A DNA stretch of 59,775 bases from a virus. Lineage: Duplodnaviria; Caudoviricetes. The translations under genes were made by a program, and so were the position numbers. Positions 4,673 to 59,342 of the stretch are shown here, piece by piece. The stretch spans positions 1 through 59,775 of IMG/VR virus record IMGVR_UViG_3300035670_000230. One strand, 5' to 3'. The notes beneath the pieces are model-generated. The model saw nothing but the letters and a program-made list of their open reading frames with translations. It did not search any database and was not told the DNA's origin. Numbering within the stretch: position 1 is the stretch's first letter; every line of letters begins with the position of its first letter.

Positions 4673-4682
4673 GGAGAACTAA

Positions 4683-6930: not shown

Positions 6931-6941
6931 GGAGAGTACAC

Positions 6942-7604: not shown

Positions 7605-7618
7605 ACTAGGAGGTGTGT

Positions 7619-7995: not shown

Positions 7996-8074
7996 CATCG
8001 GCAGTGGGGGCTTGAGGCATCCTCCCTCGTAACCTCAGGTGACCCCACACTTAATTTACTTACGGAGAAACTAA

Positions 8075-8350: not shown

Positions 8351-8352
8351 AC

Positions 8353-8583: not shown

Positions 8584-8798
8584 AAACAATTGTCCACGTA
8601 AACCAGCACGTTATACGAAGCAACACAAAAACTGGAGCAAGAGAGCCAGCATTAACTGTAAAGACGTACAAGAACAACACGTATGCAAATGAAGTTCAGA
8701 TCAACGGCCCCAGTAAAGTTGTTTATAGCCCAGACAAACCTCTGTCATGCGGAGCTAGGGTATGGATAGAAACGGAAGCAGAAGTACTAACTTACTAA
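8580..8798 (+). CDS. Conserved small phage protein
   Basis: 'IHVNQHVIRSN...P.LTVK...GPS.VVY.PDKPLSCGARVWIET'. Confidence 0.75.
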   Translation: MKTIVHVNQHVIRSNTKTGAREPALTVKTYKNNTYANEVQINGPSKVVYSPDKPLSCGARVWIETEAEVLTY

Positions 8799-8808
8799 GG
8801 AGAACACA

Positions 8809-9480
8809 ATGATTACACAACGTGACGGCTGGTGGATGCCAACATCAGACCGAGTGGGTTTTAGGTACATATCAGCGCAAGCCTCAGACATCAGCACCAT
8901 CGTGGATTACTGTCAAGACAGGCGGGTTTGTATACAGGCTGGTGGCAACATTGGTATCTGGCCCGTCAAGCTGGCTGAGATATTTGAGCATGTCATTACG
9001 GCTGAACCTGATGAAGCAAACTTCCAAGCATTGATGAAGAACACCGAGAGCATAACTAACATCACACGGTACAACTCTGCCTTTGGTGATTCAGTTAAAT
9101 CAGGTTCAATCAAGGTCAATCAGGAAGGCAACATGGGTGCATTGTCGGTGGTCGAAGGCAGTGGGTTTCATGTAGTCCCCATAGATTCTTTGAACGTAAC
9201 GAACTGTGACCTACTACAACTAGATGTCGAGGGCTATGAACTATTTGCTCTTACTGGTGCAATCAATACTATCAACAGGTGTAAGCCAACAATTTGTATT
9301 GAACTTAACGGGTTATCGCAGAACTACGGCCACGCAGATGAAGATGTTGTTAAATTTCTAATAAACCTTGGCTACACAAAGACTCGCAACATACATAGAG
9401 ACATAATATTTATGCACCACACAAAAGTCTTTGGGACCCAAGAACGTAAAAAAGAACCGCTACCTGAGGCACTACTATGA
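8809..9480 (+). CDS. FkbM-family SAM-dependent methyltransferase
   Basis: 'IQAGGNIG.W', 'EPD..NF', 'LLQLDVEGYEL..L.GA...I....P.I.IE'. Confidence 0.9.
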   Translation: MITQRDGWWMPTSDRVGFRYISAQASDISTIVDYCQDRRVCIQAGGNIGIWPVKLAEIFEHVITAEPDEANFQALMKNTESITNITRYNSAFGDSVKSGSIKVNQEGNMGALSVVEGSGFHVVPIDSLNVTNCDLLQLDVEGYELFALTGAINTINRCKPTICIELNGLSQNYGHADEDVVKFLINLGYTKTRNIHRDIIFMHHTKVFGTQERKKEPLPEALL

Positions 9481-9653: not shown

Positions 9654-9664
9654 TACCTACGGAG

Positions 9665-9847
9665 ATGAAAATGAACTCGGAACTGATCTGCCAACTTCAA
9701 ATTAGGCGGGTGGAAAACGGCTATCTGTTGGCCTGTATGCTACCCGGCAAACTCCAAGAGCAAGTGCTTTATGCCGCTGACATCGGGCGGTTGGGTGATT
9801 TATTAACTACTTTTTTAATTGAGGAGAAGCTCAATGCAAACAATTGA
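9665..9847 (+). CDS. Hypothetical protein (start may be 9671)
   Basis: 'IRRVENGYLL' motif; CTACGGAGA RBS. Confidence 0.65.
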   Translation: MKMNSELICQLQIRRVENGYLLACMLPGKLQEQVLYAADIGRLGDLLTTFLIEEKLNANN

Positions 9848-10401: not shown

Positions 10402-12229
10402 CTTTGAGACGTACTACGACAAGGAGTTCAGCTTATCCAAGATAACAACTGAAGAGTACATACGCTCTGAGCAGTTTGAAGTCATTGGTGTAGCGGCTAA
10501 AGTTGATGACCAACAGACCCAGTGGTGTACTGGTAGTAAGGAGCAAATTGCGAAGTTTTTACATTACCTTGATCTTCCTAGTCATGATGTATTGGCTCAC
10601 CACATGGCCTTTGATGGGGCAATTCTTGCGTGGCAGTTTGGGATACGACCAAAGTATTACTTTGATACATTGAGTATGGCTCGACCATTAACTGGTCTTA
10701 CGGTTGGTGGTTCACTTGCGGCACTTGCCAAGAAGTTTGAGCTTGGGGCCAAGGGTACTGAGGTTGTTAACGCACTAGGTAAACGTAGGGAAGATTTTTC
10801 TCCACAAGAGATATTTGCCTACGGTACTTACTGTATGAATGATGTGAACTTAACCTACGAGCTTTTCAAGATCCTAAAGCCGCACAGCACAACAAAAGAG
10901 TTATACATAATTGATTTGATGCTACGGATGTACATTGACCCGGTGCTTGAGCTGGATAAAGAAAAGTTGACGCATCATCTGAGTAATGTGCAGACCAAAA
11001 AAGAAGAGCTTATGCGTCGTATAAGTGATGCCATCGGCAAGGACGATCTAATGAGCAACATGAAGTTTGCAGATGTGCTCAAAAAGTTAGGTGTTGAACC
11101 GCCAATGAAAGTCAGTCTACGCACGAACAAAATGGCCTATGCATTTGGTAAGACCGACTACGAGTTCAAAGCCCTACTTGAGCATGAAGACCCACGAGTT
11201 CAAGCAGTTGTATCCGCTAGGCTTGGTATTAAATCTACCCTTGAAGAAACCAGAACCATATCGTTTCTTGGCATAGCAGATCGTGGGACACTGCCCATCA
11301 TGTTGAACTACTACGGTGCACATACAGGCAGGGCAAGCGGTGGGGATAAAATGAATCTGCAGAACCTACCCCGTGGTGGGACACTGCGCAAATCCATCAA
11401 AGCGCCTGAAGGTCACGTTGTCATAGCCGTTGACTCAGCACAGATTGAGGCACGAGTTGTTGCTTGGTTGGCTGGTCAGGATGATTTGGTTGAGGACTTC
11501 CGCAATGGTGTGGATATTTATTCCAAGTTTGCCTCAGATGTTTATGAACGGCCCATCGATAAGTCAATAGATAAGGTGGAACGGTTTGTTGGTAAGACTT
11601 GTATTCTCGGTCTGGGCTACGGCATGGGTAAGGACAAGTTTAAATCTACACTAAAAATTGGCATGGCTGGTGTATCGGTTGACCTGCCGCTCGAAGATGC
11701 TGAGCGTATTGTTAAGTTGTACCGACAAAAATATGAACGCATAACGTCACTATGGTCTGATGCTGATAAGGCGTTACCTGCAATTGCCAATGGGTTCGAT
11801 TACAAGTTTGGCGCAACTATAGCACTATGTGCTACACCCGAAGGCATAAGGCTACCCAACGATATGCTGGTGCGATACCCCGGACTACATAAAACAAACG
11901 AGGGGTTTGTATATACAACAAAGCGTGGATCAATCAAAATATATGGTGGTAAAGTTGTAGAGAACGTGGTTCAAGCACTGGCTAGGATAGTTGTGTTCGA
12001 CCAGATGGCGAAGATTGACCAAGAGTTCCGCAAACGAGATTCTGCAGATACAAGATTTAAAGTTGCATTAACAGTTCATGACGAAGTTGTTGCAGTTGTG
12101 CCTGAAGATCAAGCTCAACGGTCTTTAGATTTTATGATTAAGGTTATGTCTACCCCACCCCAGTGGGCACAAGGTTTACCGGTAGCCTGTGAAGGGGACT
12201 TTGCTTTAACATATGGGGATTGCAAATAA
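10388..12229 (+). CDS. polA: Family A DNA polymerase with 3'-5' exonuclease
   Basis: ExoI DFETY, HTGR, NLQNLPR, motif A DSAQIEARV, motif B R...K...LG..YG, motif C VHDE. Confidence 0.95.
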   Translation: MITIDFETYYDKEFSLSKITTEEYIRSEQFEVIGVAAKVDDQQTQWCTGSKEQIAKFLHYLDLPSHDVLAHHMAFDGAILAWQFGIRPKYYFDTLSMARPLTGLTVGGSLAALAKKFELGAKGTEVVNALGKRREDFSPQEIFAYGTYCMNDVNLTYELFKILKPHSTTKELYIIDLMLRMYIDPVLELDKEKLTHHLSNVQTKKEELMRRISDAIGKDDLMSNMKFADVLKKLGVEPPMKVSLRTNKMAYAFGKTDYEFKALLEHEDPRVQAVVSARLGIKSTLEETRTISFLGIADRGTLPIMLNYYGAHTGRASGGDKMNLQNLPRGGTLRKSIKAPEGHVVIAVDSAQIEARVVAWLAGQDDLVEDFRNGVDIYSKFASDVYERPIDKSIDKVERFVGKTCILGLGYGMGKDKFKSTLKIGMAGVSVDLPLEDAERIVKLYRQKYERITSLWSDADKALPAIANGFDYKFGATIALCATPEGIRLPNDMLVRYPGLHKTNEGFVYTTKRGSIKIYGGKVVENVVQALARIVVFDQMAKIDQEFRKRDSADTRFKVALTVHDEVVAVVPEDQAQRSLDFMIKVMSTPPQWAQGLPVACEGDFALTYGDCK

Positions 12230-12245
12230 CCATACGGAGAACATT

Positions 12246-12893
12246 TTGAAAGCATGGACTTACTCACATCTAGAAAAATTCGCCACTTGTCCTAAGCAGT
12301 TTTACCATACCAGTGTAGTAAAGGATTTTGTAAGTCCACCGACCGAAGCAACAATATGGGGGCACAGAGTACATGAAGCGTTTGAAAACAGAATTAACAA
12401 CGGAGCATCGCTACCAAAAGGAATGGAACACTGGGAGCGAATTGCAAAACGAATCGACAGCCTTGAAGGAAACAAGTACGCAGAAATCAAACTTGCCATT
12501 GGTAAAGGGTTTCAACCGGCAGATTGGGATAGTGCGTGGAGCCGTGGCATCGCAGACTTGGTGGTTATCCGAGAGAAGAATGCCATGGTACTTGACTACA
12601 AGACCGGAAAGCGAAAGCCGTCGGAACAATTAGACCTGTATGCGGCTTACATTTTTGCGCATTACCCAGAAGTTGAAAACGTAAAAACTATTTTTGTATG
12701 GCTCAAAGAACAGAAGACTGACAAAAAACGATTTAACCGTGATGAACTACCCATTATCTGGCGTGAATTTATACCAAAAGTTGCTCGGCTTGAGTCAGCA
12801 TACAATCGTGATTCGTGGCCCGCTAAGCCATCAGGGTTGTGCAACGGATGGTGTCCTGTGAAGACTTGTCAGCACTACAAGGAGAAGCGATGA
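12246..12893 (+). CDS. PD-(D/E)XK (Cas4/RecB-like) exonuclease
   Basis: 'YSHL..F.TCP', 'G..D...LDYKTGK', 'QL.LYA', C-terminal CxWCxxxxC; TTG start at 12246 follows a TACGGAGAA RBS. Confidence 0.85.
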   Translation: MKAWTYSHLEKFATCPKQFYHTSVVKDFVSPPTEATIWGHRVHEAFENRINNGASLPKGMEHWERIAKRIDSLEGNKYAEIKLAIGKGFQPADWDSAWSRGIADLVVIREKNAMVLDYKTGKRKPSEQLDLYAAYIFAHYPEVENVKTIFVWLKEQKTDKKRFNRDELPIIWREFIPKVARLESAYNRDSWPAKPSGLCNGWCPVKTCQHYKEKR

Positions 12894-13476: not shown

Positions 13477-13692
13477 ATGAACATATTTCCGCACATTTCA
13501 GATGTACAGTGGAAACCTTTTGGTGACCATGCAGTTGAGTTTGTTTGGTCGGACAGCTACAACAAGAACCCCCCTATAAGGGTGGCAATGATTTTACCTA
13601 TGGATAACCTAGAAAACGTAATAAATTCTACAGTAGAGGTAATGAATGGCAACTATCCTGAAAGACAAAAAAGCAGTCGTACTAAAACTTAA
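13477..13692 (+). CDS. Hypothetical protein
   Basis: Fills the gap before the helicase; start uncertain. Confidence 0.45.
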   Translation: MNIFPHISDVQWKPFGDHAVEFVWSDSYNKNPPIRVAMILPMDNLENVINSTVEVMNGNYPERQKSSRTKT

Positions 13693-15226
13693 AGAACCAA
13701 CAAGAGTAACAACGGTCATACCGACCGCTAAACTTATAACGCATAAAGGGGCCACACTTGTGGCCCTTCCTCACAGACCTGATGAAACACGGGTGCTACG
13801 CCAGCTTGGGTTCAAAAATATACCTGACCCACTGAAGACGCATTACGAGTTCCCCAAGGCCAGCGGTAAGTTTGAGCCATTTGACGCTCAGATAGAGACT
13901 GCTAACTTTTTCTCCATGAACAACCGATGCTTCTGTACTAACTCGATGGGGTTAGGCAAAACAGTTTCGGCTCTGTATGCATTTGATTATATGAAGAAGT
14001 CTAAGTTAGTTAACAAGGTTTTGGTTATCTGCCCACTGTCAACGATGGAGCGCACTTGGGCTGATGAGATATTTAAAACTTTTCCACACTTTGATGCAGT
14101 AGTTGTCTATGGCTCACGAGCAAGACGCCACAAGATACTTAAAGAAGACGCTGACATATACATTGTTAACACTGATGGCCTAAAAGTTATCGAAACTCAG
14201 TTAGCTTCAAGACCTGATATTGATCTTGTTATTGTTGACGAAGTGGCTATGTTTAGAACGCCAAACACCCAGCGATGGAAGACCCTCAACAACGTAATTA
14301 ACAAGCAAACAATTAGCCGCAGAGTGTGGGCCTTAACTGGTGCGCCATGTCCTAACGAACCTACTGATGCTTGGGCGCAGATACGGGTGATAACACCATC
14401 AAACACAGACGCACCTAAGTACTTTACGCAGTTTCGTGACATGACCATGCGGCAGATTACTCAGTTTAAGTGGGTTCCCAAAACAGATGCCATGGATACT
14501 GTGCGTAAGCTGATGCAACCATCAATACGATTTGCTTTGGATGACTGCGTTGATCTGCCGCCCCAGTTGTTTCAGACACGAGATGCTGAGATGACTGATG
14601 AGCAGAAAAAAGCATACAGAGACATGGTGTCTAAACTTTCAACCGAGTACGCTGGTGGTCAAGTACTCGCAGTTAACGAAGCAGTTAAGGCCAACAAACT
14701 TGTTCAGATCGCCTGTGGTGTTGCATATGGTAAAGATAAGACCGAAATTATCCTACCAAACAAACCACGCATTGACGTTTTGAAAGAGGTCATTGAAGAG
14801 TCTGAAGGTAAGGTCATCGTGTTTATACCACTGACTGCTGTTCTGAAGTATGTAGCCAAAGAGCTTGAACCATATTGGCCTATTGGGATTGTTCATGGTG
14901 AAACTTCAAAGCACGAACGGGACCAGATATTTTCAGGCTTCCAGACAGCCGACGATCCTCATGTTTTGGTAGCGAATCCAGCAACTATGTCACACGGGTT
15001 AACCCTAACTAGGGGAACTACTATCGTATGGTTTGCCCCTATTTACTCCAATGATATTTATGAGCAGGCTTGTGCTCGTGTTCGTCGTCCGGGCCAAACA
15101 AAAACCACCGTGATCGTACATCTTGCGGGGTCAGAGATAGAACGACGAATCTACCAGCGGCTGTCCAGCAAGCAGAAGATGCAGGGCATATTGTTGGATT
15201 TGATGAAGGAGGGCATTGAAGACTAG
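13646..15226 (+). CDS. SNF2-family helicase
   Basis: MGLGKT, DEVA, LTGAP, 'HGLTL', 'QACARVRRPGQ'. Confidence 0.9.
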   Translation: MATILKDKKAVVLKLKEPTRVTTVIPTAKLITHKGATLVALPHRPDETRVLRQLGFKNIPDPLKTHYEFPKASGKFEPFDAQIETANFFSMNNRCFCTNSMGLGKTVSALYAFDYMKKSKLVNKVLVICPLSTMERTWADEIFKTFPHFDAVVVYGSRARRHKILKEDADIYIVNTDGLKVIETQLASRPDIDLVIVDEVAMFRTPNTQRWKTLNNVINKQTISRRVWALTGAPCPNEPTDAWAQIRVITPSNTDAPKYFTQFRDMTMRQITQFKWVPKTDAMDTVRKLMQPSIRFALDDCVDLPPQLFQTRDAEMTDEQKKAYRDMVSKLSTEYAGGQVLAVNEAVKANKLVQIACGVAYGKDKTEIILPNKPRIDVLKEVIEESEGKVIVFIPLTAVLKYVAKELEPYWPIGIVHGETSKHERDQIFSGFQTADDPHVLVANPATMSHGLTLTRGTTIVWFAPIYSNDIYEQACARVRRPGQTKTTVIVHLAGSEIERRIYQRLSSKQKMQGILLDLMKEGIED

Positions 15227-15252
15227 ACAACATACACACGTTTTGTTATACT
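15224..15252 (+). promoter_or_regulatory. Sigma70 promoter with ATACACACGT box in the spacer
   Basis: TAGACA-17 bp-TATACT with TGn extended -10. Confidence 0.7.
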
Positions 15253-15277
15253 AAATTACCTTTACGGAGATTGACCT

Positions 15278-15661
15278 ATGAAACTATCAGAAGTTGTAGC
15301 CAAGTACATCGAGCTACGGGACCAAAAAGCCCAGCTAAAAACCGAGTACGACATGCAAATAGCCCCCATCGAAGCAAAGATGTCCAAAATTGAAGGTAAG
15401 TTGTTGGAAGTACTTGACCAAACTGGTGGGAAATCTTTTAACACTCCCCATGGAACGGCATATGTATCAGTACGAACCACAGCCTCTGTTGCTGACAGGG
15501 AAGCATTTTTTGATTTTGTTAAGCAAAACGAGGAGTGGCCCTTGATGGAAGTCCGTGCCAGCAAGTTAGCAGTAGAGCAGTACAAGTCTGTCAATCAGGA
15601 ATTACCCCCGGGTATCAATTGGCGAGAAGAGCGGGTTGTAAACATCCGTCGTTCGTCGTAG
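15278..15661 (+). CDS. Conserved replication-module protein
   Basis: N-terminal coiled coil, 'T.HGT', 'D.EAF..FV', 'PPGI'; lies just before SSB. Confidence 0.7.
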   Translation: MKLSEVVAKYIELRDQKAQLKTEYDMQIAPIEAKMSKIEGKLLEVLDQTGGKSFNTPHGTAYVSVRTTASVADREAFFDFVKQNEEWPLMEVRASKLAVEQYKSVNQELPPGINWREERVVNIRRSS

Positions 15662-15693
15662 TATTCTTAACCTCTACAGGAGATTTTTAGCTT

Positions 15694-16587
15694 ATGAACA
15701 TTATTCCATTTGAGGGTGGCAAACTACCCGCCCATTTGGCAAAAGCAGATGTAGCACAACTTAACGCTGATTTGACTGCCCACGCCGCAGTCGGTGGCTT
15801 TCCAGTAGTTAGTATCAAAGGCAAGGTCTTTGCCATCGTTCGTGATGGTGAGCGTAAAGTTCTGCCTAACCCCAAAGACCCCGATAGTCCTGCTACGGCT
15901 ATTGATGTGGTATTGCTCAAGGTCAACAAGGGCACGAGTAAAGTGTTCTACGCCAAGGGCTACCAAGAGGGTTCTGACGGTGTTAAGCCCGACTGTTTCT
16001 CTAACGAGGGTGTAAGGCCAGATGCTTCCATCGAATCGCCTCAGTCTAAATCTTGTGCTGTGTGTAAGTGGAACCAGTGGGGTTCTAAGATCAGCGAGAG
16101 CGGCTCCAAGGGCAAGGCTTGTCAGGACAGTGTACGGATGGCGATTGCTACGCCTAATCTGATTAACGACCCATACCTGTTGCGTGTACCTCCGGCCTCA
16201 ATTCGTGCCGTTGGTGAGTATGGTCAGATGTTGGCTAAGCGTGGCGTGGCTTACAACATGGTGGTTACGAAGGTTGGTTTTGATATGCAAGCCCCCAACC
16301 CCAAGCTGACATTTAAGCCTGTCGGGTTGCTTGATGAAGAAACTTTTGAGAAGGCCCAAGAGGTTATTCAATCTGACACAGTTGCTCAGATTCTTGGGGT
16401 GTCAAACGTAGCTTTACCTGAGGCAACACAAACCGCAGACGAGGAAGAAGCAGAAGAACCTGAAGTTACTGCGGCCCCCACAGAAGAAACCGAGAAGAAA
16501 AAACCAGGGCGCAAACCTGCGGCTAAACCGGAACCAGAACCCGAAATATCTGGACTAGATCTCGACGATCTAAATTTTGACGATTAG
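15694..16587 (+). CDS. Single-stranded DNA-binding/annealing protein
   Basis: 'PDCFS..G..PD', 'C..C..NQWGS', 'GKAC'; acidic C-terminal tail ...DLDDLNFDD. Confidence 0.7.
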   Translation: MNIIPFEGGKLPAHLAKADVAQLNADLTAHAAVGGFPVVSIKGKVFAIVRDGERKVLPNPKDPDSPATAIDVVLLKVNKGTSKVFYAKGYQEGSDGVKPDCFSNEGVRPDASIESPQSKSCAVCKWNQWGSKISESGSKGKACQDSVRMAIATPNLINDPYLLRVPPASIRAVGEYGQMLAKRGVAYNMVVTKVGFDMQAPNPKLTFKPVGLLDEETFEKAQEVIQSDTVAQILGVSNVALPEATQTADEEEAEEPEVTAAPTEETEKKKPGRKPAAKPEPEPEISGLDLDDLNFDD

Positions 16588-16616
16588 GGGGTAGTGCCGA
16601 GCCTAGCGCTCTGACA

Positions 16617-16641
16617 GCCGGGAAAGACCGGCTTTTTGTTT
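16617..16641 (+). terminator. Intrinsic terminator between ssb and primase
   Basis: GCCGG-GAAAGA-CCGGC followed by TTTTTGTTT. Confidence 0.7.
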
Positions 16642-16654
16642 CTTGGGAGTTTTA

Positions 16655-19585
16655 ATGGATACCTTAGAGTTTCTGCAGACCGTCTTACCAGAAGACGGCA
16701 TAAAGTATCTGGCGCTCATCGACCCCAAAACAGGAAAACCCGCACACAAGCCATACGAAAATTTAATCGATATGGCAAAAGCAGTAGAAGAATACGATGC
16801 AAAACCCGTGCAGGTTTATCACGCTTGCGGTGCTTATAAAGAACCGTTTGTTGAGGTTGATGGCAAAAAAAGGTGGCGGGTCAAGGAGAACCAATTTAAG
16901 GCCAAAGCGTTTTGGTTGGACGTTGATTGTGGGTTAGCTAAGTCAGAAAAGGGTGAGGGTTATCCGACAAAGAAGGATGCGCTTGTTGCCATCAAACAAC
17001 TATGCGTCAAGACCGGACTGCCAGCACCACTCATCATTGACTCGGGCAACGGGCTACATATTTATTGGCCTTTAACAAAAGCTATCAGTTCTAGCACATG
17101 GATAAAAATTGCTAATCGGTTTAAGGCAGTCACTATCCATCTTGGGTTGATTGCAGATCCCACGGCAACGGCAGACTTTGCTCGGGTTCTCAGGCCGGTT
17201 GGTAGCACAAACAAGAAAAAAGAACTTAAGACTGTTGTAGCAAAAAATTCAGTTGAGGCAGTTACCCCCGAAAAATTTGTCGAAGCGCTAAAAAGTGTAG
17301 ATTTACCCAAGCAGGAACCGCAGAAAAAAGTAGATATTAACGACGACCTGATTGCCCACGCACCTGTTTCCGTCCCCAGCTTTGCCGAAGTTATCTCAGA
17401 AAAGTGCGCACAAGTTGGTGTGATGCGGGATACCCTTGGCGACGTAAATTACGAACACTGGCGGGGTGTTATTGGCATCATCAAGCACTGTGAAGAAGGT
17501 ATTGAGAAGGCCCGAGAATGGAGCGCTAAGAGGGCTGAGACAGGCCATGGTCAGGTAGATGTAGATCAGAAGTACGATACTTGGTCATCGCCACCAACGA
17601 CCTGTGAGTTCTTTTCTAAGTGCAACCCTGTGGGGTGCGAGGGCTGTCAGTTTTCTGGCAAAATTAAATCTCCTATTGTCTTGGGGCGTAAAGAACCGGA
17701 GCCTAAGGCAATCGAGGTTGAAGCTAAAGTCGATGGTATGCATTTGCAAGTTGTGGTCCCAGAGTTCCCACAAGGTTACGGTTTTAGTAACTTTATGATG
17801 ACTCGCTACATGAAGGACAAGGACGACATAACCCACTCGTTTGCTTTCTGCCAAAATTTGTTTTATCCAATACACAGGATTCGTAAAGAAGATGGGTCTT
17901 TTAGCCTTGGGATGCGGATGCACTTACCCGACAAAAGAACTCGGGAATTTGAGATCGAGACTAAACTACTTGCTTCTCCACAGAGACTAATTGAGGGTCT
18001 TGCCAACCACGAATTATTGCCAAACAACGCTAAGGATTCTTCTATGCACATGACTGCCTACCTCAGAGATTCTCTGGAAAAGCTCAAACAGGAAGCAGAG
18101 GAACTTAACACATACACCAGTTTTGGGTGGAAAAACGACTTCCAAGGATTTTTACTAGGTGATCGGCTTTACCACCAAGATGGGACGGTACGTAAGGTTT
18201 TGGTTGGTGGTTATGCTAAAGACCGTGCCGCAGATTTCCCCACCCCTACTGGTAACGCCGGGGGTTACGCTGACGCACTAAATTACCTGTATGCCAGAGA
18301 TGGTATGGAACCCATGCAGTACGTCATCATCGCTGGTTTTGGTTCTGTGCTAAGCCCTCTGTCTGAGTCCATGTATAAGGGTCTGACGTTTGCAGTTGTG
18401 GGTGAGGAGACAGCCAAGGGTAAGACTACGGTATGTTGGGCATCGCTGTATGCTTTTGGTGATGCTGACCGCATGAGCCTTAAAACAGAGGAGAACGCCA
18501 CCACCAATGCTCGGTACGCTAGGCTTGGAACGTATGGCAACATCCCCATGCTGATTGACGAGCTTACCAACATTGACCCCGAGGAGTTTTCTAAATTTGC
18601 CTACACAGTTAGTCTGGGTCAGGAGAAGGAGCGGCTTACATTAGGTAAGGGCAACTCAGGTGTCCGGTTTGCCGAAGCCCAGACTTGGGGTATGAATTTG
18701 TTTGTAACCGCTAACAAAGACTTACATGCTGCTATGGCGGTCAGGCAGAGCAATACCCAAGCAGAAGCCGTGCGTATGATCCAAATTAAGATCGACCGCT
18801 ACGATATGCCAGAGCTTAAGATGTCTGAAGTCGAAGCGGCTAAGCGCAAAATGTCGATCAATAAAGGTGCGGCGGGTGATTTATTTCTTAGGTACATAAC
18901 TGCTAACCTCGACGATGTGATGAGACGAATGGCAGATTGGGGTGTACGGTTTGAAAACGACATGCCAGATGTGCGCTACAGGTTCTATCGTAACCATGCT
19001 ATTTGTTCGTTTACAGCGTTGGAGATCTCCAACAGTCTGGGCATAACTAAGTTTGACGTTGAAAAACTGTATTCGTTCGTCATCAATCTGTTTCTAGAAC
19101 TGGCGGTATCGGTTAAAGAACAGAACACCATTACCCCAGAAGATGCGCTAAACAGGATGCTCAATGACTTATCTGCACGGATATTAGTAACCAACGAGTA
19201 CCGTGATGGCAGGGATACACGAGGCCCGGAGGACGCTCAGAAGGTGTACGGTGGAGCAATTGCTGGTCGGTATATTATTGGCAACATCAACAACAAAGAC
19301 AATCCCCTAACCGGCAAATTGTTTTTAGTGAAGAAAGAAATTATGGATTGGTGTCTAAAGCACCGTGTTGACCATAAACACATGGTTGAAGTTGCTATGA
19401 AGTTGGGAGTTGCCACCGACCCCAAAGAAAAATTCAACGTCGGTCGTGGTACCAAGGTGTCTGCCGGTCAGCATCGCTGTGTCTGTATTGACATGCTCAA
19501 GCTAGAATCCATGTATGCAGAAGCACCAAAACTGACAATAGCCTCAGTTACCAAACTAGAGGGTAGTCAAGTAGCCAATAATTGA
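16655..19585 (+). CDS. Primase-helicase (AEP/RepB-like primase, PriCT, DUF927 helicase)
   Basis: 'WLDVDC', 'SGNGLHIYW', 'ARVLRPVGSTN', Walker A-like 'GEETAKGKTT', 'IDELT'; GGGAG RBS before ATG 16655. Confidence 0.85.
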   Translation: MDTLEFLQTVLPEDGIKYLALIDPKTGKPAHKPYENLIDMAKAVEEYDAKPVQVYHACGAYKEPFVEVDGKKRWRVKENQFKAKAFWLDVDCGLAKSEKGEGYPTKKDALVAIKQLCVKTGLPAPLIIDSGNGLHIYWPLTKAISSSTWIKIANRFKAVTIHLGLIADPTATADFARVLRPVGSTNKKKELKTVVAKNSVEAVTPEKFVEALKSVDLPKQEPQKKVDINDDLIAHAPVSVPSFAEVISEKCAQVGVMRDTLGDVNYEHWRGVIGIIKHCEEGIEKAREWSAKRAETGHGQVDVDQKYDTWSSPPTTCEFFSKCNPVGCEGCQFSGKIKSPIVLGRKEPEPKAIEVEAKVDGMHLQVVVPEFPQGYGFSNFMMTRYMKDKDDITHSFAFCQNLFYPIHRIRKEDGSFSLGMRMHLPDKRTREFEIETKLLASPQRLIEGLANHELLPNNAKDSSMHMTAYLRDSLEKLKQEAEELNTYTSFGWKNDFQGFLLGDRLYHQDGTVRKVLVGGYAKDRAADFPTPTGNAGGYADALNYLYARDGMEPMQYVIIAGFGSVLSPLSESMYKGLTFAVVGEETAKGKTTVCWASLYAFGDADRMSLKTEENATTNARYARLGTYGNIPMLIDELTNIDPEEFSKFAYTVSLGQEKERLTLGKGNSGVRFAEAQTWGMNLFVTANKDLHAAMAVRQSNTQAEAVRMIQIKIDRYDMPELKMSEVEAAKRKMSINKGAAGDLFLRYITANLDDVMRRMADWGVRFENDMPDVRYRFYRNHAICSFTALEISNSLGITKFDVEKLYSFVINLFLELAVSVKEQNTITPEDALNRMLNDLSARILVTNEYRDGRDTRGPEDAQKVYGGAIAGRYIIGNINNKDNPLTGKLFLVKKEIMDWCLKHRVDHKHMVEVAMKLGVATDPKEKFNVGRGTKVSAGQHRCVCIDMLKLESMYAEAPKLTIASVTKLEGSQVANN

Positions 19586-19597
19586 TGTATTATTTGT

Positions 19598-19667
19598 GGG
19601 ACAACTTTGTTGCCATTGTTGTCTTCTCCGTAGAGTTTCCCCCCGGCGCAATGTCGGGGGGTTTTTT
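19598..19667 (+). ncRNA. Candidate anti-RBS small RNA
   Basis: 5' hairpin (19598-19625), single-stranded CTCCGTAGAG, terminator hairpin; possible promoter TAGTCA(19564)-18-TATTAT(19588). Confidence 0.55.
19639..19667 (+). terminator. Intrinsic terminator ending the early arm
   Basis: CCCCCCGGC-GCAAT-GTCGGGGGG followed by TTTTTT. Confidence 0.9.
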
Positions 19668-19980
19668 ATTCCACAATCTCAATTGGAATAATTTTCTTAA
19701 TCATGTTTTTTGGAATTACGATTGCATTGGCATGATTGTCATCTGCTACGCTTTGCGCTAGATAAATACCTTTTGCGCTTTTCTTAAGTAGCCACCCCAA
19801 CGTCTTAACTTCTGTCGGATCAGCATTTAAATTTTCATTACCATCTTGCCAGTAACCTACTTGGTGCGCATCAAGCCAGATCACTAGAACGGGTTTTGGA
19901 TTTTTTTCTGAAGTAGTCTCTAAGCGTTTGCGCCGTTCTGGCAACATCTTCTCGTTCGATTTGTCTGGCAACAGGTTCAT
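19666..19980 (-). CDS. Conserved small phage protein (start uncertain)
   Basis: 'V.V.W.DAH...W', 'T.GWL', 'IPK.MI..I'. Confidence 0.7.
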   Translation of the reverse strand: MNLLPDKSNEKMLPERRKRLETTSEKNPKPVLVIWLDAHQVGYWQDGNENLNADPTEVKTLGWLLKKSAKGIYLAQSVADDNHANAIVIPKNMIKKIIPIEIVE

Positions 19981-20368
19981 TGATATACCTCGCAGCTTGC
20001 GTAAATAAACTTACCTTGTCTTTTAGAAGTCCGATGGCAGAATTACAAGGACGGCATAAAATCCCACGAACTTCTCCGGTTTTGTGGCAGTGGTCTATGA
20101 CGGACTGATTTCCTTCTAGCTTTAATTCGGACTCGCATATTGCGCACTTCCTTTCTTGAACTTCTAAAAGATCTTCGTAAAACTGAGGCGTAATACCAAA
20201 GCGTTGTAGTCTGTTACGATGACTTCTACATTCTTTGCATTCTCGGAACTTACCAACGTGCTGGGAACCATAGTCAGCACGAGATTTATACTGGTCACAG
20301 ATAGAGCATTTAATAGCCCCACCATGAAGTGTATCTATCTTTTGTTTAAGTTTCTTTGCTATATGCAT
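19871..20368 (-). CDS. Endonuclease VII-like (Hpy99I/recombination endonuclease VII) protein
   Basis: 'Q..KCAIC...IDHCHKTGEVRGILCRPCNSAIG...D'. Confidence 0.9.
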   Translation of the reverse strand: MHIAKKLKQKIDTLHGGAIKCSICDQYKSRADYGSQHVGKFRECKECRSHRNRLQRFGITPQFYEDLLEVQERKCAICESELKLEGNQSVIDHCHKTGEVRGILCRPCNSAIGLLKDKVSLFTQAARYINEPVARQIEREDVARTAQTLRDYFRKKSKTRSSDLA

Positions 20369-20372
20369 AAAT

Positions 20373-20399
20373 AAAAAAGCCCAGCCGGAACTGGGCTTT
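20373..20399 (-). terminator. Intrinsic terminator ending the late operon
   Basis: AAAGCCCAG-loop-CTGGGCTTT with a U6 tract on the - strand. Confidence 0.8.
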
Positions 20400-20412
20400 C
20401 AGGATATTGGCC

Positions 20413-20544
20413 TTACTTCTTACGAGCCGCTTCTTTTTTCATGCATTTACCCATGGCCTTGCATTTAGCAGGACTGGGGCAACCGGGACAAGTTTTAAAG
20501 TCAGACTTCTTAGAACCAGCGGGTTTTGCTTTGCCGTACATCAT
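20413..20544 (-). CDS. 43-aa basic Cys-rich peptide MMYGKAKPAGSKKSDFKTCPGCPSPAKCKAMGKCMKKEAARKK (not in ORF track)
   Basis: AAGGAGA RBS; CxxC-x5-C-x5-C; lies directly before the terminator. Confidence 0.75.
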   Translation of the reverse strand: MMYGKAKPAGSKKSDFKTCPGCPSPAKCKAMGKCMKKEAARKK

Positions 20545-21439: not shown

Positions 21440-24400
21440 TTATGCAGTTATGCGTTCTACAAACCTACGACTACTGTCGGTAAATGGTACGCCCTCTGAT
21501 GTTTGCTCTTCACGCTTGCGTTGTTGTTCTGGAGCATTTGTCAATTCTGTCATAGGTTTACGTGGATAACCATTACGAACACGAGCCGCTTGAAGATCTA
21601 GCCATTGCCTACGCAGTTCAGCTTGTTTAGTCCTATCTTGGTCTTTAGTAGCTTCGGAATATTGACGCTTCAGGGTAGAAGAACGGCTACTAAACTTCTG
21701 TTCAAGGTCGATAGTACGGCCTTGCTGTTCACCACGAACGGATGTTTGTGTTGGGCTTAACCCTAAAGCCTGCCAGAAAGCCGTAACCTCACCAATTTGG
21801 TCGGGTTTTAGAAGAACATCACCACCACGATTAGTGAACCCCTCGCTGTATATGCGAACAGCTCGCATGGCGTCCCCAAGACCTTTTGGTAGCATTAACT
21901 CAAGACCTTTGTATTCGTCACCAGCGGCAATGTAGCTCATACCATCTGCCATCCGAGCCGCCATACCACCAGCAGGACCACCTAGGAGCGTACCAATAAT
22001 CTGGTAGGTCTTCTCACCATTGAGGTCTTTAATTTCTGTAAACGGCATTACGGACAGGGCGTTACCCATGCCAATTTTGCCTGAGAGGTTTACACCAGCT
22101 AGGTTGGGCGAACCATAAAGCACGATGTTGGATATGTCGTTGTTACCAATCGCATCACGAATCTGACCTTTAATATCAAATGGCTCGTCTTCATCTCCAA
22201 GCAAACCCTCAAGCGCCCAAGCAATAGCAGCAGCTCCCGGCATACCCATAACACCAGTAAGAACAGCAGTCTGAGCAAGGATATAACCTAGGGCCTTACG
22301 GGCAACTTGTTGTTCTGGGCCTTTTGTAAATGAGTTTTTAATCAACTTGGCAAGCAGACCCAACTGAATAAGCTGGAATTTACGGAACTGCAGGGCGACT
22401 TTACCAACGTTCGTATTGAACATACGTGGGGCGTTAAACGCCGAGTAGTCACCGTGGGTGTCGTTAATGATGCTGCTTGCGTAGTCGATGGCTACATCTC
22501 GATTGCCTGTTTTTGCAAGCTCAAGTCGATAGGCAGCAATGGCAGTTGTAAGTCGGTTGATGGCCTCAACTTTTTGTACAGCTAAACGCAAGCCCTTATC
22601 AACTTTGTTCCATGTATCAGTAACAGGACCTTGGCCTTCAATGGTAAATTCACCCATCTCTGTGGAAATGCCAATGTCAATCTGGCTGCGGTTAACCAGT
22701 GTTTCAATAACATCTTTAACATCATCAGGAACTTTAGAAAAATCAAATTGCTGGTCGAACAACTTGGCTGACTTCATTACATCTTTAAGATCGAAGTAGG
22801 CGTTGTAAAGGGCATTAGCAGATTTAGTGTAGTCGTGTCGTCCAGCCATTACAGGCAAGCTCATCATCCATGGCTGAGTAAAGTTCTGCAGGTAGTAACC
22901 CGGGCTTGACGCCAAAAAGTACACAGACGTAATACGGTTAAGTTTCTGAACTGCTTGGTTAGGTTCGTACTCCAGTGACTGGATGTAACGTCCGTTTAGC
23001 TCATTAAGAAGCTCTGACTTGCGGGTACGGTTACCACCTTGTTTGGCTTGCTTGCGCATCTTTTGCAGCGCTTCTTGTGTTCTGTTGTTGTATTGAACAG
23101 CGGCTAAGAAGTTAGCATCAGCTCGACCTTGGAGGGCAAACGATTGAAGCATGTCAATTTCACCGGGTACTGCTCGACGACGAAGCTCTGACTTTCTTGC
23201 ACTAGAATCAGCCAACGCATGGAGGTACATGTCTGTAATGATTCTACGAAGCTGGTTGGTACTTTTTTCATCCTGACCAGTTCTTTCCACCGTAGCCCGT
23301 AATTTACTTAGGGCAGCAAGCATGGTGTCTCCACCATATAGTTCGTCTTGGAACTTTTCACGCTCAAAGTAGTAAACGGCATCCTCATTAGTACCGTAGA
23401 AACCCTGATCTTGAAGCTGTTTCTGCAGGTTACGAGCCTGAATATCTGAGTCTACAAAGCTAACTTGGTAGTGGTTGGGGTCTTGCTCAAGCTCACGTAT
23501 ACGTTTTTTGTCGTCAGCAGTTTCTGCCGCACGGTACTCAGGCGATTTAGCCACCACAGCATATTTGCCTATACGCTTTAACGGAGCATAGGGTATACCC
23601 TCACGCAATTTAAACAACGTATCAAACTTTTTAAGATCAGCAATTTTTTCTTTTTGGAGTTGAGCAACTAGCTCGGCATTACCATCAGCTTGAGCGGCCT
23701 TAATCTGCGCATCGTATTCGCTGTTAGTGTAGTCAAGCAGAATCTTTTTCTTCATGGCAAGCGTATCGTCACCATGTTTGAACACAGCACGGATAAACGA
23801 CTGAGCCTCAGAAGATAAAGCGTCGAATCTGGTTTTTAGATCTGCGTCAACAGCTACGCCAGTGGTACGCCACTTAGGCGTAAAGCCCCACTTCTTGGTT
23901 CGTGTGGAGTCATAGATAAATGCGTTGACACTTTGGGATCCTGTACCACGATCTTTGTCTGGCACTAGGGCATACATGTCGGCGATGCGCTCAACTTCTT
24001 TTTCAAACTTACGGGTTTCAACCCCACGAGCCTGCATCAGTTGTTTAAATTCTGCAGCCGACCGGATACCAGATTCAACAGCACGGTTAATCAACGCCTC
24101 GGTAAATACCACACGATCAACACCCTTACGAGTCCAGTTACGGATTGTCTGGTAAATACTGTTAGAACTACTTCTGACCGTAGGCGGTATGTTATTTAAA
24201 ACATTAGCCGCAGCTCTTGCATTACGAGACCGAGCTACTGGGACGTTTTGTTGGGCTGCGGCGACGTCTCTTGCGATTGTCGTAAGGGCTTCTGCGACCT
24301 CTTTAGAAATTCCCCCCCTGCCCGCATCGACCCTCTCGGCTCTACTATCGAACGCTGGGCCTGTGAGGTTTGTGGCGTTGAAGTTTTCTGTTGTTTGGAC

Positions 24401-27400
24401 ATCTGCAAGTACCTCCTTCATAAATGCCACTGTAGCTGGCGCATTGTCGTTAAGAATTTGTTGTGTTTCAGCGGTAGCAGTAGTATACAAAGCCCATATC
24501 TGCGCAAACAACTCATGGCGAATTTGGTTTGAATCTAAACCTTTTCTTTCATTAGGGTCTAGTGGGTATGCAAAAATAACATTTGCGTCTTCGTTAATTC
24601 TGCGTAGCTTTGCAATTTCTACAGATACTGCCCCCATAGGGACAACTTTACCGTTTACAAGTTTAATATTTAACCTAGGGTCAGAAGAGTAAGTATCTTG
24701 ACCTTGTACAACTTGATCTACAGCGTGGCCTACTTCGTGAGCCATTGTCCATTTAGCAAAACCTCGATCAGCAGCAATATCTTGGCGCAAAACCACTGAC
24801 ACCTTTTGATCGATGTTGGTAATGATTCCATCCCAGTCTACATTCATGTTGTAGCTGACAAAGAACTGACCAACAGCATTAAACGCATTGCTGATCCCTA
24901 GTGAGTCATACGCACTACGAAGTTCAGCAATGCCTTCATAAACATCAGACATCTCATCAAGAGATGCGTCCTCAATAAACAAACTCTGATCGGTTCTAGT
25001 TAGCTCCTGAACCTGTTTCTCCGCACGACGCCGCATTGCGTTGACTTTTGGCTTGGCAACAGGAGTAGTAGGAGCAAACGGAGCTTCGGGCAGCACATAG
25101 ATGAAACCACCGTTGAACTCACCAAGCTGGGGTTTAATTTTATTTAAAAACAATTCGTGGCTAGTGTTGATGCAGCCATAGCTAATTCGATTGTCTTTAA
25201 CATCTGGCGAGGCTAAGCGCTCAAGGCGTCTATCATTTACGTTTCCAAGCCAAGCTGGATGCACTGCAATAATGCCTTTATTAAAACTGGTTTCGGCAAG
25301 ATCTAAACGATAGCCGCCTTCGTAGTCAGAATCTTCCACGACTTCCAAAGTAAATTTGCCTGCAGGGGTTATTTTTTTACCACCATTTAGCGAATCGCCC
25401 TGAAACGTATCTCCAATGTCTGCCCCAAAAAGCGCAGTGTCGGAAGCTAAATGTTGACCACTGGAGAAAAACATGTGGAGCTTGCCATTACGTTTGTCGG
25501 CAATCATAAACCCACGTTGTTTTTCTTTGGCTAATGGAGCGACTTGTCGGTAAATAATTTTTGCTTCTTCGCTCATTTGGTTAGCAACTTCAGTCGGAAC
25601 AGTAGCTTCTGTTTGTCTAGCTTGAATACTAGCGTAGGCTTCTTGCAGGTTAAAGTTAAACCCGTTACCAGTAATGTTGGGGTTAAATACGATTGCTGCT
25701 GCGATTGCAGCTTTAGCCAACTGCTGGATAACGCCACGAATCTTGGCGGCAACAAATTCTGCGCCTTCATTTATATAATTGGTAATGTCTTGGCTTAGTT
25801 TACTAAGGAATAGGTCAGTTCCTGCTTTATCGCCATAGTGGGACTCAAGCAACTTAGTCTGCGAGTTATTTAGTTTGGAAGTTTGCTCAAGCAGCAGTGT
25901 ACGCTGAGCCTCAGGAATAACAGTAGCTTCCACATCGATGGTACGGCTGTCATCTACGATGCGCTGTAGGTCCCGCATATTCATCTGCGCAGGATCAATT
26001 TCCACCAATGCAGCCCGTTGGGCGTCAGTTAACTTATCCCATGTGGGTAGTGCATCGTCAACTAACTGGCGAAGTTCGTTGTATTTAGTTTCAGCCGCTT
26101 CTTGTTTGGTAAGAACTACCGCAGCCTGCGTTGTCTGTGTAGACGGTGCCTTGGTTGTACCTGTAGTGGTTACTTGTGTTGATTTTCTGGCTTCTATAGC
26201 TCTAGGAGATCCAAAAATATTAAAAAGTAAATTTCCACTTTCTAAGTCGCCGGGGTAATGAACCATTAAGGTATCCCCGTCAACGGAACGTCTTTGCTTT
26301 AGGCTATGAGGCTCAGAGCTAGTTGTCCCTAGATCAAAGTCCATTTGAAAAACTTCATTATTTCTACCACGACCCATTAAAACTAAAGTGTGTCGTTTAA
26401 TTTCGCTATTAGGTAAGTCTCTAACTTCGTATTTAGCTTGTATTTCACCATCGGTAACGTTCTCAAGTGTTTTAAACTCAGAATTTTTCCTAATAGCAGT
26501 AAGTTGGCCTGAGCCTACCATTTGAAAATTTTGTGTTGAAAGTGGTTTAAATCGATTTAAGTATTCCTGTAAACGCCCAAACTGCTTATTTGGGTATCTA
26601 ACTAAACCTGAGTACGACACTCCAGCTTCTATGCGTTCACGAGATTGCGCATCTGGTTCAAACCCACGTTTTTCGTAAAACTTAACTAATTCTTCTTGGC
26701 TAAGTTTTTTACCGGACTGTGTATCAGCAGCAGCTACAACAGTTAAAGTAAGGTTATTTTTATCTGCCCAAGTTGTAATGCTGTTTAATAATTTTGAACC
26801 AGCACCCTGACCCGGATCTTTTGCAGTTAACAAGCCCAACTTCCACGTATTTGAATTTCGTGCTGGGTCGTTATGTAATTGTGCTCTAGCACCCTGTGCT
26901 TCAAATGAAAACGTATTGATTGTTGATTTAGGAAAATCAGGATCTTTTGGTCTAAGCGCAACAGCTACTCCCGGGACATCCGGTAGTACTACTTCTTCTT
27001 TTTGGGTTTGGGTTTCACCTTCTGCGGCAGGTTCTTTGGCGACCCGTACTTTTTGGCCCACTTTTTCGCCAACTCTGGCTTTTGGCTGAACAGATACTTT
27101 CTCTGTTTCTCGCTTTGGAACGGCACTTGGCTCTCCTTTAGCATCGAGGACTTCGGTTTCGATCAGACTATCAATTAATTTTTCGTCGGTATAAACACCT
27201 TGCTTCCCAAGATTAACAAAAGGAAGCCTTTCGCCATCCACTTTAATGTTAAACCCAGCAACTTGGTTTGGCTCTTCAATGCTACGAATAATAGTTAACG
27301 TAGCTGGCTGACCTTCAAAAGTTACTCGATGTTTTGTTTTGGTTTCCTTTACTTCTCGCTTTGGAACGGCATCGTCTCCCTCCTGTGTAGGCTCGCTAGT

Positions 27401-59337: not shown

Positions 59338-59342
59338 TCAGG

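What the first reader, a model, noticed from the sequence alone, without database searches (positions are those of the whole stretch)
19564..19667. Candidate trans-acting anti-RBS sRNA targeting the phage's own early/middle genes
Seen: the 80-bp gap after the primase holds a hairpin (GGGACAAC/GTTGTCTT), a mostly unpaired TTCTCCGTAGAG (19624-19635) and a strong terminator, with a possible TAGTCA-18-TATTAT promoter. The complement of that seed, CTCTACGGAGAA, matches + arm RBSs well beyond the SD core: TACGGAGAA (8061, HTH; 12233, exonuclease), CTACGGAGA (9657), CTTTACGGAGA (15260, G-U), CTCTACaGGAGA (15672, ssb, one bulge), TATGGAGAA (2140) and CTAAGGAGA (4669, 6927, 8795, one mismatch). The late-arm RBSs I read do not carry TACGGAGA. 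Inference: one sRNA could silence a regulon of early/replication mRNAs, for an early-to-late switch, carrier state or superinfection control.
Basis: partly seen in the sequence, partly recalled or inferred. Interest (0 to 1): 0.85.

Follow-up and report, generated by a model that had tools for sequence, protein, structure and literature searches.

The report
Phage small RNA matching its own ribosome sites
The gap after this uncultured phage's primase gene holds a conserved short RNA gene, and its exposed CUCC stretch has changed in step with the ribosome-binding sites of two nearby replication genes across related phages, which suggests the phage uses it to turn those genes' translation down.

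Summary
The 80-bp convergent junction 19586-19665 contains a 5' hairpin, a mostly unpaired CUCC stretch and a strong + strand intrinsic terminator.

Inside this one genome the pairing to early ribosome sites is not beyond chance. 15% of shuffled-flank seeds reach an equally good best hit, and a generic anti-SD shows the same early/late bias.

The support comes from relatives. The element follows the primase gene in 31 of 38 related loci. The loci with both flanks give 13 sequence lineages.
- Its seed co-varies with the translation-initiation regions of the two genes just upstream of primase, the orthologues of 15278 and 15694. Cognate duplex energy is -17.4 vs -12.5 kcal/mol (p&lt;=1e-5) and -15.5 vs -12.2 (p=2e-4). 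Control genes show nothing.
- A TAnnAT box sits 6 nt before a covarying 5' hairpin.
- No Rfam family matches.

Best reading: a new ~50-80-nt anti-RBS small RNA that represses two replication-module genes. Expression, trans versus cis action and a wider regulon are not shown.

The parts
19564..19569 (+). -35-like hexamer TAGTCA, weak
   Evidence: Consensus scan, 9 of 12 with the -10. Not conserved as a clear -35 in relatives.
19588..19593 (+). -10-like box TATTAT
   Evidence: A TAnnAT box is present in 12 of 12 lineages examined, with the two middle bases variable. It lies after, across or inside the end of the primase reading frame depending on the lineage.
19600..19667 (+). Predicted small RNA of about 68 nt, from 6-7 nt after the -10 box to the end of the U-tract. 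The 5' end is inferred, not mapped.
   Evidence: The same architecture (5' hairpin, open seed, terminator) is predicted in relatives at 49-80 nt. No Rfam family reaches its gathering score.
19598..19625 (+). 5' stem-loop, with GUUGCCAU in the loop at 19609-19616
   Evidence: Fold. On alignment A3 (14 sequences) the 6-bp stem is 97% paired over 66 cells, 5 of 6 pairs have changes on both sides, 0 of 500 shuffles reach this, and slid controls give 20-61%.
19620..19636 (+). Seed region UGUCUUCUCCGUAGAGU, with the CUCC core at 19626-19629.
   Evidence: Predicted opening cost is 1.2 kcal/mol in the short RNA.
19639..19667 (+). Intrinsic terminator: 10-bp stem with 8 G-C pairs, then T6
   Evidence: On the - strand the tail after the hairpin has only 2 T in 8, so it works in one direction only here.
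15259..15276 (+). Predicted target 1: start region of gene 15278-15661 (Pfam DUF7307 'Pam3 gp33-like', phrog_13900)
   Evidence: 14 bp, -20.2 kcal/mol, rank 1 of 76. Across 13 lineages cognate energy is -17.36 vs permuted -12.47 +/- 0.94, and 0 of 100,000 permutations are as low. Families.
15671..15692 (+). Predicted target 2: start region of gene 15694-16587 (297 aa, phrog_27714, function unknown)
   Evidence: 15 bp, -18.2 kcal/mol, rank 2 of 76. Across 13 lineages -15.45 vs -12.23 +/- 0.87, p = 1.9e-4.
13646..13653 (+). Possible extra target: the start of the SNF2 helicase gene (AUGGCAAC), complementary to the hairpin loop
   Evidence: Top hit of the whole-element comparison in the window (1 of 76) and in its closest relative G001 (1 of 49; 11 + 13 bp around a 4-nt bulge). 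The co-variation test is only marginal (p = 0.016 among 15 groups tested).
9657..9665 (+). Possible extra target: CTACGGAGA before gene 9671-9847
   Evidence: Third-best start region in the window (-17.9/-18.0 kcal/mol). No orthologues were found with which to test co-variation.
19590..19616 (-). Antisense mini-ORF MATKLSHK with its own SD (rival reading)
   Evidence: A - strand SD plus start is present in 9 of 13 lineages and absent in 4. The peptides are not alike beyond Met-Ala.
16655..19585 (+). Primase/helicase gene; the element forms its 3' untranslated end
   Evidence: DUF927 and primase PHROGs.

Best explanation
The junction encodes a small regulatory RNA read from the + strand. The RNA has a 5' stem-loop, a single-stranded anti-Shine-Dalgarno seed (CUCC plus 4-8 flanking bases) and an intrinsic terminator with a U-tail.

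It is made either from its own weak sigma-70-type promoter, whose -10 box overlaps the end of the primase gene, or as the 3' end of the primase mRNA, or both.

The seed base-pairs across the Shine-Dalgarno region of the two genes just upstream of primase: 15278 (Pam3 gp33-like) and 15694 (a 297-aa protein of unknown function). This would block ribosome binding, so that translation of these replication-module proteins falls as the RNA accumulates.

Shown here: the anatomy, its conservation, the co-evolution of seed and target sites, and the covarying 5' hairpin. Inferred: that the short RNA exists, that pairing represses rather than activates, that it acts in trans, and any timing role.
For: 1. 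Conservation. The element follows the primase stop in 31 of 38 loci whose primase is about 38-69% identical. By my inspection it is missing from the 27 printed loci with about 25-30% identity.

2. Co-variation, first test. Among 14 orthologue groups, cognate-minus-foreign duplex energy is -5.1 kcal/mol for 15278 and -4.9 for 15694, against -2.4 to +0.5 for the other 12.

3. Co-variation, permutation tests.
- 9 lineages: p = 5e-5 and 1.2e-3. Controls: primase 0.76, DNA polymerase 0.38.
- 13 lineages: 0 of 100,000 permutations, and p = 1.9e-4.

4. The bases 5' of GGAG switch together in the seed and its targets. They read ACGGAG in the window, G001 and G007; ACAGGAG in group A; CTGGAG in G005; TTGGAG in G011; and CACAC..GGAG in L129 and L130. 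Genome-wide the commonest context is AAGGAG.

5. In L133 the seed reads CUUC, which still pairs with GGAG through a G-U pair but would spoil a - strand SD.

6. Within each genome, at least one of the two targets ranks in the top 3 start regions in 9 of 12 genomes.

7. Promoter and transcript shape. A TAnnAT box is present in 12 of 12 lineages, 6 nt before the base of the 5' hairpin in 8 of 12. The seed opening cost is 0.1-2.6 kcal/mol in the predicted short RNA.

8. The 5' hairpin is supported by compensatory changes.

9. The terminator U-tract is on the + strand in all lineages. The - strand tail is T-rich in only 2 of 13.
Against: - No RNA evidence. Three metatranscriptome runs hold only scattered short contigs between 15000 and 19340.
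- Within the window the pairing is not better than 15% of shuffled-flank seeds, and the early/late bias is shared by a generic anti-SD.
- Transition differences between seed and targets do not favour G-U over A-C (27 vs 30). The co-variation therefore cannot tell complementarity apart from identity of an inverted motif.
- The + strand folds better than the - strand only in group A (overall Wilcoxon p = 0.12, 12 genomes).
- Three or four lineages lack the 5' hairpin.
- The 15278 orthologue ranks poorly in G010 (65 of 70), and only 12-13th in G003, G005 and G006.
- Gene starts come from my own ORF and SD heuristic.
- Lineages were chosen by me, and the related ones are not independent.
Confidence: 0.6

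Rival explanations
1. The same pairing acts in cis. The element is only the 3' untranslated end of a long SNF2-to-primase mRNA, and it folds back over about 4 kb onto the two upstream start regions of the same molecule. This would be icaR-like 3'/5' pairing, and no separate small RNA would be made.
For: The element lies between the primase stop and the terminator, so every primase transcript carries it. Both targets lie in the same + strand gene block. Co-variation fits cis as well as trans.
Against: - The conserved TAnnAT box at a fixed 6 nt before the hairpin suggests a separate start.
- In group A and L008 the seed is masked in the 3'-UTR context (opening cost 8-13 kcal/mol) but open in the short RNA.
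- A terminator-like hairpin at 16616-16633 separates the targets from primase.
Confidence: 0.15
2. The functional strand is the - strand. The motif is a real ribosome site for a 6-8-codon mini-ORF at the tail of the late transcripts. Alternatively it is an inverted copy of a motif that one phage protein recognises at the 15278 and 15694 starts, for example a RegA-like translational repressor or a DNA-binding regulator. The copies would then stay alike because they share that reader.
For: - GGAG, then 7-10 nt, then ATG is present on the - strand in 7 of 13 lineages, and with TTG in 2 more.
- The hairpin would not stop - strand transcripts in 11 of 13 lineages.
- Identity rather than wobble dominates (G-U 27 vs A-C 30).
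- MATKLSHK resembles the SNF2 N-terminus MATILKDK.
Against: - 4 of 13 lineages have no - strand start, yet they keep the seed and its co-variation.
- The peptides are unrelated.
- L133 has GAAG in place of GGAG on the - strand.
- The hairpin G-U pairs and the group A folds favour the + strand.
- A protein reader would have to change its specificity in every lineage.
Confidence: 0.13
3. It is only a terminator with a spacer. The resemblance to ribosome sites is chance plus the general likeness of any CUCC stretch to Shine-Dalgarno complements.
For: Within-window statistics are weak. The Rfam hits are generic terminator-type matches below threshold.
Against: Lineage-specific co-variation with two particular genes and none in the controls. 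A conserved -10-like box and a covarying hairpin.
Confidence: 0.08

Closest known systems
c4 antisense RNA of phages P1 and P7
   Same: A phage RNA that pairs in trans with the ribosome-binding region of a phage mRNA and blocks translation. Its complementary stretches are thought to be displayed in loops (passage of review PMC12197685 read).
   Different: c4 controls the antirepressor and immunity of temperate phages. From recall, it lies upstream of its targets and is cut out of the same transcript. Here the RNA sits at the 3' end of a replication operon, has its own terminator and probably its own promoter, and targets replication-module genes. No Rfam family, c4 included, matched at E up to 10 apart from 8 generic sub-threshold hits.
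3'-UTR-derived, Hfq-type bacterial small RNAs
   Same: They lie at the 3' end of a coding gene and share its intrinsic terminator with U-tail. They carry a short open seed upstream of the terminator and may have an internal promoter inside the coding region.
   Different: Those are bacterial and usually act on unlinked mRNAs. Hfq dependence cannot be tested here and the host is unknown.
icaR mRNA 3'-UTR / 5'-UTR pairing in Staphylococcus aureus (PMC3868564; title and start of abstract seen)
   Same: A C-rich anti-SD stretch in a 3' untranslated region pairs with a Shine-Dalgarno region to control translation.
   Different: In icaR the pairing is within one monocistronic mRNA. Here the targets are two upstream cistrons about 4 kb away or on other molecules.
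Phage small RNAs that act on host or phage mRNAs, such as VpdS of a vibriophage and PreS of lambda (review passage); lambda OOP and P22 sar (recalled)
   Same: Short phage-encoded regulatory RNAs.
   Different: According to the review passage, VpdS represses host small RNAs and competes with them for Hfq, and PreS regulates essential bacterial genes. OOP and sar are cis-antisense to their targets. The present seed is complementary to sites 4 kb away on the same strand.
T4 RegA and RegB control of early mRNAs (recalled; the review PMC3014915 appeared only in the listing)
   Same: Post-transcriptional shut-down of early phage genes at their Shine-Dalgarno and start regions.
   Different: Those are proteins. 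Here the specificity would be carried by an RNA.

Membership tests
Intrinsic (Rho-independent) terminator | G+C-rich stem-loop directly followed by a U-tract on the transcribed strand | tested here: met
   10-bp stem with 8 G-C pairs, then T6, at 19639-19667. A stem and T-run were found downstream of the primase stop in 34 of the 38 loci examined, including all 31 that carry the element.
Trans-encoded base-pairing small RNA | Seed complementary to the target start region, kept by compensatory change | tested here: met
   Cognate vs permuted duplex energies in 13 lineages: p <= 1e-5 (15278) and 1.9e-4 (15694). Control genes are not significant.
Trans-encoded base-pairing small RNA | Discrete transcript with its own 5' end | tested here: inconclusive
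   A TAnnAT box is conserved in 12 of 12 lineages, 6 nt before the hairpin. The contigs from RNA runs give no cover and no ends at the site.
Trans-encoded base-pairing small RNA | Accessible seed | tested here: met
   Predicted opening cost is 0.1-2.6 kcal/mol in the short RNA in 12 of 12 lineages. It is 8-13 kcal/mol in the 3'-UTR context in L008, L009 and L014.
Trans-encoded base-pairing small RNA | Chaperone (Hfq or ProQ) dependence | not testable with these tools
   The host is unknown. Only the U-tail is seen.
Any curated Rfam family (including phage c4 and other small RNAs) | Score at or above the family's gathering threshold | tested here: not met
   The best hits score 18.6-24.6 bits against thresholds of 41-197.
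Small ORF on the - strand | SD, start and stop conserved across relatives, and a conserved peptide | tested here: not met
   SD plus start is present in 9 of 13 lineages and absent in 4. The peptides differ beyond Met-Ala, and 2 run on into the antisense of primase.
icaR-type 3'-UTR anti-SD element (cis) | Element and target on one mRNA molecule | not testable with these tools
   Same strand and same gene block. Transcript boundaries are unknown.

The most novel reading that the evidence does not exclude
A clade of uncultured aquatic ~55-65-kb phages carries a self-targeting small RNA at the end of its replication operon. Its anti-Shine-Dalgarno seed is hidden when it is read as the tail of the primase mRNA and is exposed only in the short transcript. 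It then shuts off translation of two replication proteins, and in some lineages the SNF2 helicase and further early genes. This would make an RNA-based timer of the early programme. Late - strand read-through RNA, which is perfectly complementary to it, could neutralise it.
Probability: 0.3. Interest if true: 0.75.

Novelty: new variant of a known kind. Interest (0 to 1): 0.62.

Why it matters
Few regulatory RNAs are known by which phages control their own genes. The known ones come mostly from temperate model phages (c4, sar, OOP).

Here a candidate is supported by the kind of evidence normally used for bacterial small RNAs: seed and target co-variation across lineages. It comes entirely from metagenomic phage genomes.

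It gives a directly testable pair of targets. It offers natural compensatory variants (13 seed/target combinations) for reporter assays. It also shows a way to find such regulators in uncultured viruses: look for anti-SD stretches next to operon-end terminators and test them against cognate and foreign start regions.

Tried and rejected
- Rfam search at E up to 10 gave 8 sub-threshold, terminator-type hits.
- DNA search of the junction against cultured phages found no match. A protein search with the primase found only distant hits of 22-26% identity, to Pseudomonas phage Rollin and four Rhizobium phages. There is therefore no annotated relative.
- Expression. The look-up of sequencing runs found 3 RNA runs from 3 studies with small word shares. 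When laid, they gave 13 short contigs between 15000 and 19340 and none over 19416-20500. Contigs cannot show a small RNA, its ends or its strand, so this says nothing either way.
- Strand test by wobble pairs gave G-U 27 vs A-C 30, which does not discriminate.
- Strand test by fold energy gave a mean of -11.0 (+) vs -8.7 (-), p = 0.12.
- RNAalifold on the MAFFT alignment found only a seed-to-terminator pairing and missed the hairpin, because the alignment was poor. I therefore counted a stem that I named myself, which leans towards that stem.
- A second targeting region (hairpin loop to start codon) was tested against 15 orthologue groups. SNF2 gave p = 0.016 and the 6942 group p = 0.008, marginal after 15 tests.
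- Wider regulon test: cognate seeds show an excess of strong targets in 4 of 8 lineages (win, G001, G003, G010) and none in G002, G004, G005 and G007.
- Function of target 15694. There was no Pfam or NCBIfam hit and no PDB sequence hit (best E = 0.79). The Atlas gave a lead to 'Pam3_Gp34' on 10% of one cluster. The AlphaFold model was poor (pLDDT 58.8) and Foldseek against the PDB found nothing at E <= 0.001. The conserved cysteines and acidic C-terminal tail make an SSB-like role a lead only.
- A paper search for Pam3 gp33/gp34 gave nothing usable.
- Supplementary files of papers were not asked for.

Rows dropped before the 13-lineage test:
- near-identical group A loci (L005, L006, L010, L012, L120-L128, L131);
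- loci that look like copies of the same contig (L119, L126, L137, L021, L136);
- loci without upstream flank (L140 and others);
- loci without the element (L013, L020, L135, L134, L141, L024, L025).
Full report
**What the window is**

It is a complete 59,775-bp viral record with direct terminal repeats. Genes on the + strand run from the left end to 19585. They include a family A DNA polymerase, a PD-(D/E)XK nuclease, an SNF2 helicase and a DUF927 primase/helicase. Genes on the - strand run from about 58.8 kb down to 19666. The finding lies in the 80-bp gap where the two arms converge. No cultured phage is close: the junction has no DNA match and the primase is at most 26% identical to any cultured phage protein.

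**The observation**

All described features are present.
- The hairpin lies at 19598-19625.
- A CUCC-containing stretch is largely unpaired.
- A strong + strand terminator lies at 19639-19667.
- A 9-of-12 promoter-like match lies at 19564-19593.

The statistics inside this genome are weak.
- TACGGAGA is enriched (6 vs 1.03 expected).
- The 12-mer with two mismatches is not (4 vs 2.98).
- The seed prefers + arm start regions (p = 0.003), but so does a generic anti-SD (p = 0.002).
- Against 500 random-flank seeds that keep CTCC, the real seed is in the top 2.2% for mean + arm pairing.
- Its best single hit (-20.2 kcal/mol, gene 15278) is matched by 15% of 400 shuffled-flank seeds.

From this genome alone one cannot say more than 'terminator plus an SD-complement-like spacer'.

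**Relatives**

An alignment of three primases (A1) found related loci in viral contigs and metagenome contigs. Of 38 loci with primase about 38-69% identical, 31 carry a C-rich seed (CUCC, once CUUC) within 100 nt after the primase stop, followed by a terminator. Three have a terminator only and four have none. Several loci appear to be the same contig held in both collections. By inspection, the 27 printed loci at about 25-30% identity have other arrangements. I fetched eleven related records whole. I called genes with a simple ORF and SD heuristic and set orthologue starts by alignment to the window's proteins.

**Co-variation**

The bases just 5' of GGAG differ between lineages, and they differ in the same way in the seed's complement and in the start regions of two genes. 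Those genes are the orthologues of 15278 and 15694, which sit between the SNF2 helicase and the primase.
- ACGGAG in the window, G001 and G007.
- ACAGGAG in group A.
- CTGGAG in G005 and TTGGAG in its relative G011.
- CACAC..GGAG in L129 and L130.

In each genome only 1-6 of the 5-33 GGAG-bearing start regions share the seed's context. Where that context is not the common AA, these nearly always include one or both of these genes. The commonest context genome-wide is AA.

Quantitatively:
- Over 14 orthologue groups, cognate minus foreign duplex energy is -5.1 and -4.9 kcal/mol for these two groups and between -2.4 and +0.5 for the rest.
- Label permutation over 9 lineages gives p = 5e-5 and 1.2e-3. 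The primase, DNA polymerase, SNF2 and 6942 groups give 0.76, 0.38, 0.09 and 0.07.
- With 13 lineages the cognate means are -17.36 vs -12.47 +/- 0.94 (0 of 100,000 permutations) and -15.45 vs -12.23 +/- 0.87 (p = 1.9e-4).

Independent neutral drift from a complementary ancestor would not favour cognate over foreign pairs, and the control genes rule out a composition effect. I therefore take this as co-evolution.

Within genomes the 15278 orthologue ranks 1, 1, 12, 1, 4, 13, 13, 3, 2, 65 and 1 (out of 17-91 start regions). The 15694 orthologue ranks 2, 3, 5, 18, 14, 1, 19, 3, 1, 2 and 2.

**Which strand, and is it a separate RNA?**

For the + strand:
- The U-tract follows the hairpin on the + strand everywhere. 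The - strand tail is T-rich in only 2 of 13 lineages.
- The 5' stem has compensatory changes (97% of 66 cells paired, 5 of 6 pairs changed on both sides, 0 of 500 shuffles). It includes G-U pairs that would be mismatches on the other strand.
- In group A the + strand folds 4-10 kcal/mol better than the - strand.
- L133's CUUC seed keeps pairing by wobble, while its complement loses GGAG.
- Four of 13 lineages have no - strand start codon after the motif.

Against, or neutral:
- G-U-type and A-C-type differences are equally common (27 vs 30).
- The strand energy difference is not significant overall (p = 0.12).
- 9 of 13 lineages do have a - strand SD plus start with a 6-8-codon ORF or longer.

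For a separate transcript:
- A TAnnAT box is present in 12 of 12 lineages. Its middle bases vary. It lies after, across or inside the end of the primase frame depending on the lineage.
- A start 6 nt downstream coincides with the first base of the 5' stem in 8 of 12 lineages. It gives RNAs of 49-80 nt with an open seed (0.1-2.6 kcal/mol).
- With 30 nt more upstream sequence, the seed costs 8-13 kcal/mol to open in L008, L009 and L014.
- No clear -35 is conserved.
- RNA runs gave no information at the site.

**Other possible targets**

The hairpin loop GUUGCCAU is complementary to the first 8 nt of the SNF2 gene. In the closest relative the whole element can form 11 + 13 bp with the SNF2 start region. 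The test over lineages is marginal (p = 0.016 among 15 groups), as it is for the 6942 group (p = 0.008).

Beyond the two main genes, cognate seeds have more strong + arm targets than foreign seeds in 4 of 8 lineages. These include the window, with 4 against a mean of 0.9 at -16 kcal/mol. A wider regulon in this phage is possible but not shown.

**The targets**

- 15278 matches Pfam DUF7307 ('Pam3 gp33-like') exactly at the cut-off, and phrog_13900.
- 15694 matches only PHROGs of unknown function. It has conserved cysteines and an acidic C-terminal tail. Its model was poor and found no fold.
- Both are conserved parts of the replication module, and their functions are unknown.

**Comparison with known systems**

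The mechanism proposed is that of RBS-masking antisense RNAs such as c4 of P1 and P7 (review passage). The anatomy is that of 3'-end small RNAs that share a gene's terminator (recalled). If the element acts in cis, the parallel is the icaR 3'-UTR anti-SD (PMC3868564; listing). It belongs to no curated RNA family. I rate it a new variant of a known kind.

**Verdict**

The element is real and conserved, and its seed has co-evolved with two specific start regions. That it is a trans-acting repressor RNA is the best-supported reading (0.6), but it rests on comparative inference only.

Noticed in passing
window 2890-8810, and 58840-59410: Many + arm genes are preceded by stops in several frames fused to the SD (for example TAACTAACTAAGGAGA, then 5-8 nt, then ATG). 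This extended start-region habit is not seen on the - arm.
   Followed up: partly
window 16616-16633 and 15224-15252: A terminator-like hairpin with a T-run lies between gene 15694 and the primase. A promoter-like site with an upstream TG (TAGACA-17-TATACT) lies just before gene 15278. The two predicted targets may therefore form their own transcription unit.
   Followed up: no
G001 (contig of L008) 11880-11915 vs its element after the primase: In the closest relative the element can pair with the SNF2 helicase start region over 11 + 13 bp around a 4-nt bulge. That is much more than in the window.
   Followed up: partly
L009, L014 and other group A loci, first 45 nt after the primase stop: The -10-like box region and a GGGG/GGUG run pair with the seed in one long hairpin. 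The seed is therefore masked in the mRNA-tail context but open in the predicted short RNA.
   Followed up: partly
window 12233-12248: TACGGAGAA is followed by an in-frame TTG at 12246. This may be the true start of the PD-(D/E)XK nuclease, rather than the SD-less ATG at 12213 that overlaps the polymerase gene.
   Followed up: no
window 15694-16587: The 297-aa protein has conserved cysteine pairs and an acidic C-terminal tail ending in an aromatic-acidic motif in 14 orthologues. It may be a single-strand DNA-binding protein, but no fold or family confirms this.
   Followed up: partly
window 21440-30484 (-): A single ORF of 3,014 aa in the late arm, conserved in all 12 genomes compared.
   Followed up: no
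window 19666-19980 and 19871-20368 (-): The last late-arm ORF (104 aa, phrog_25889) overlaps the endonuclease VII ORF by 110 nt if it is read from its first ATG, so its real start is probably further in. Its stop codon overlaps the terminator's T-run.
   Followed up: no
window 15000-19340: Short contigs 90-100% identical to this stretch (most 95% or more) occur in metatranscriptome libraries of three studies, labelled aquatic, marine and freshwater. The phage or close strains are therefore present in such libraries. DNA carry-over cannot be excluded.
   Followed up: partly
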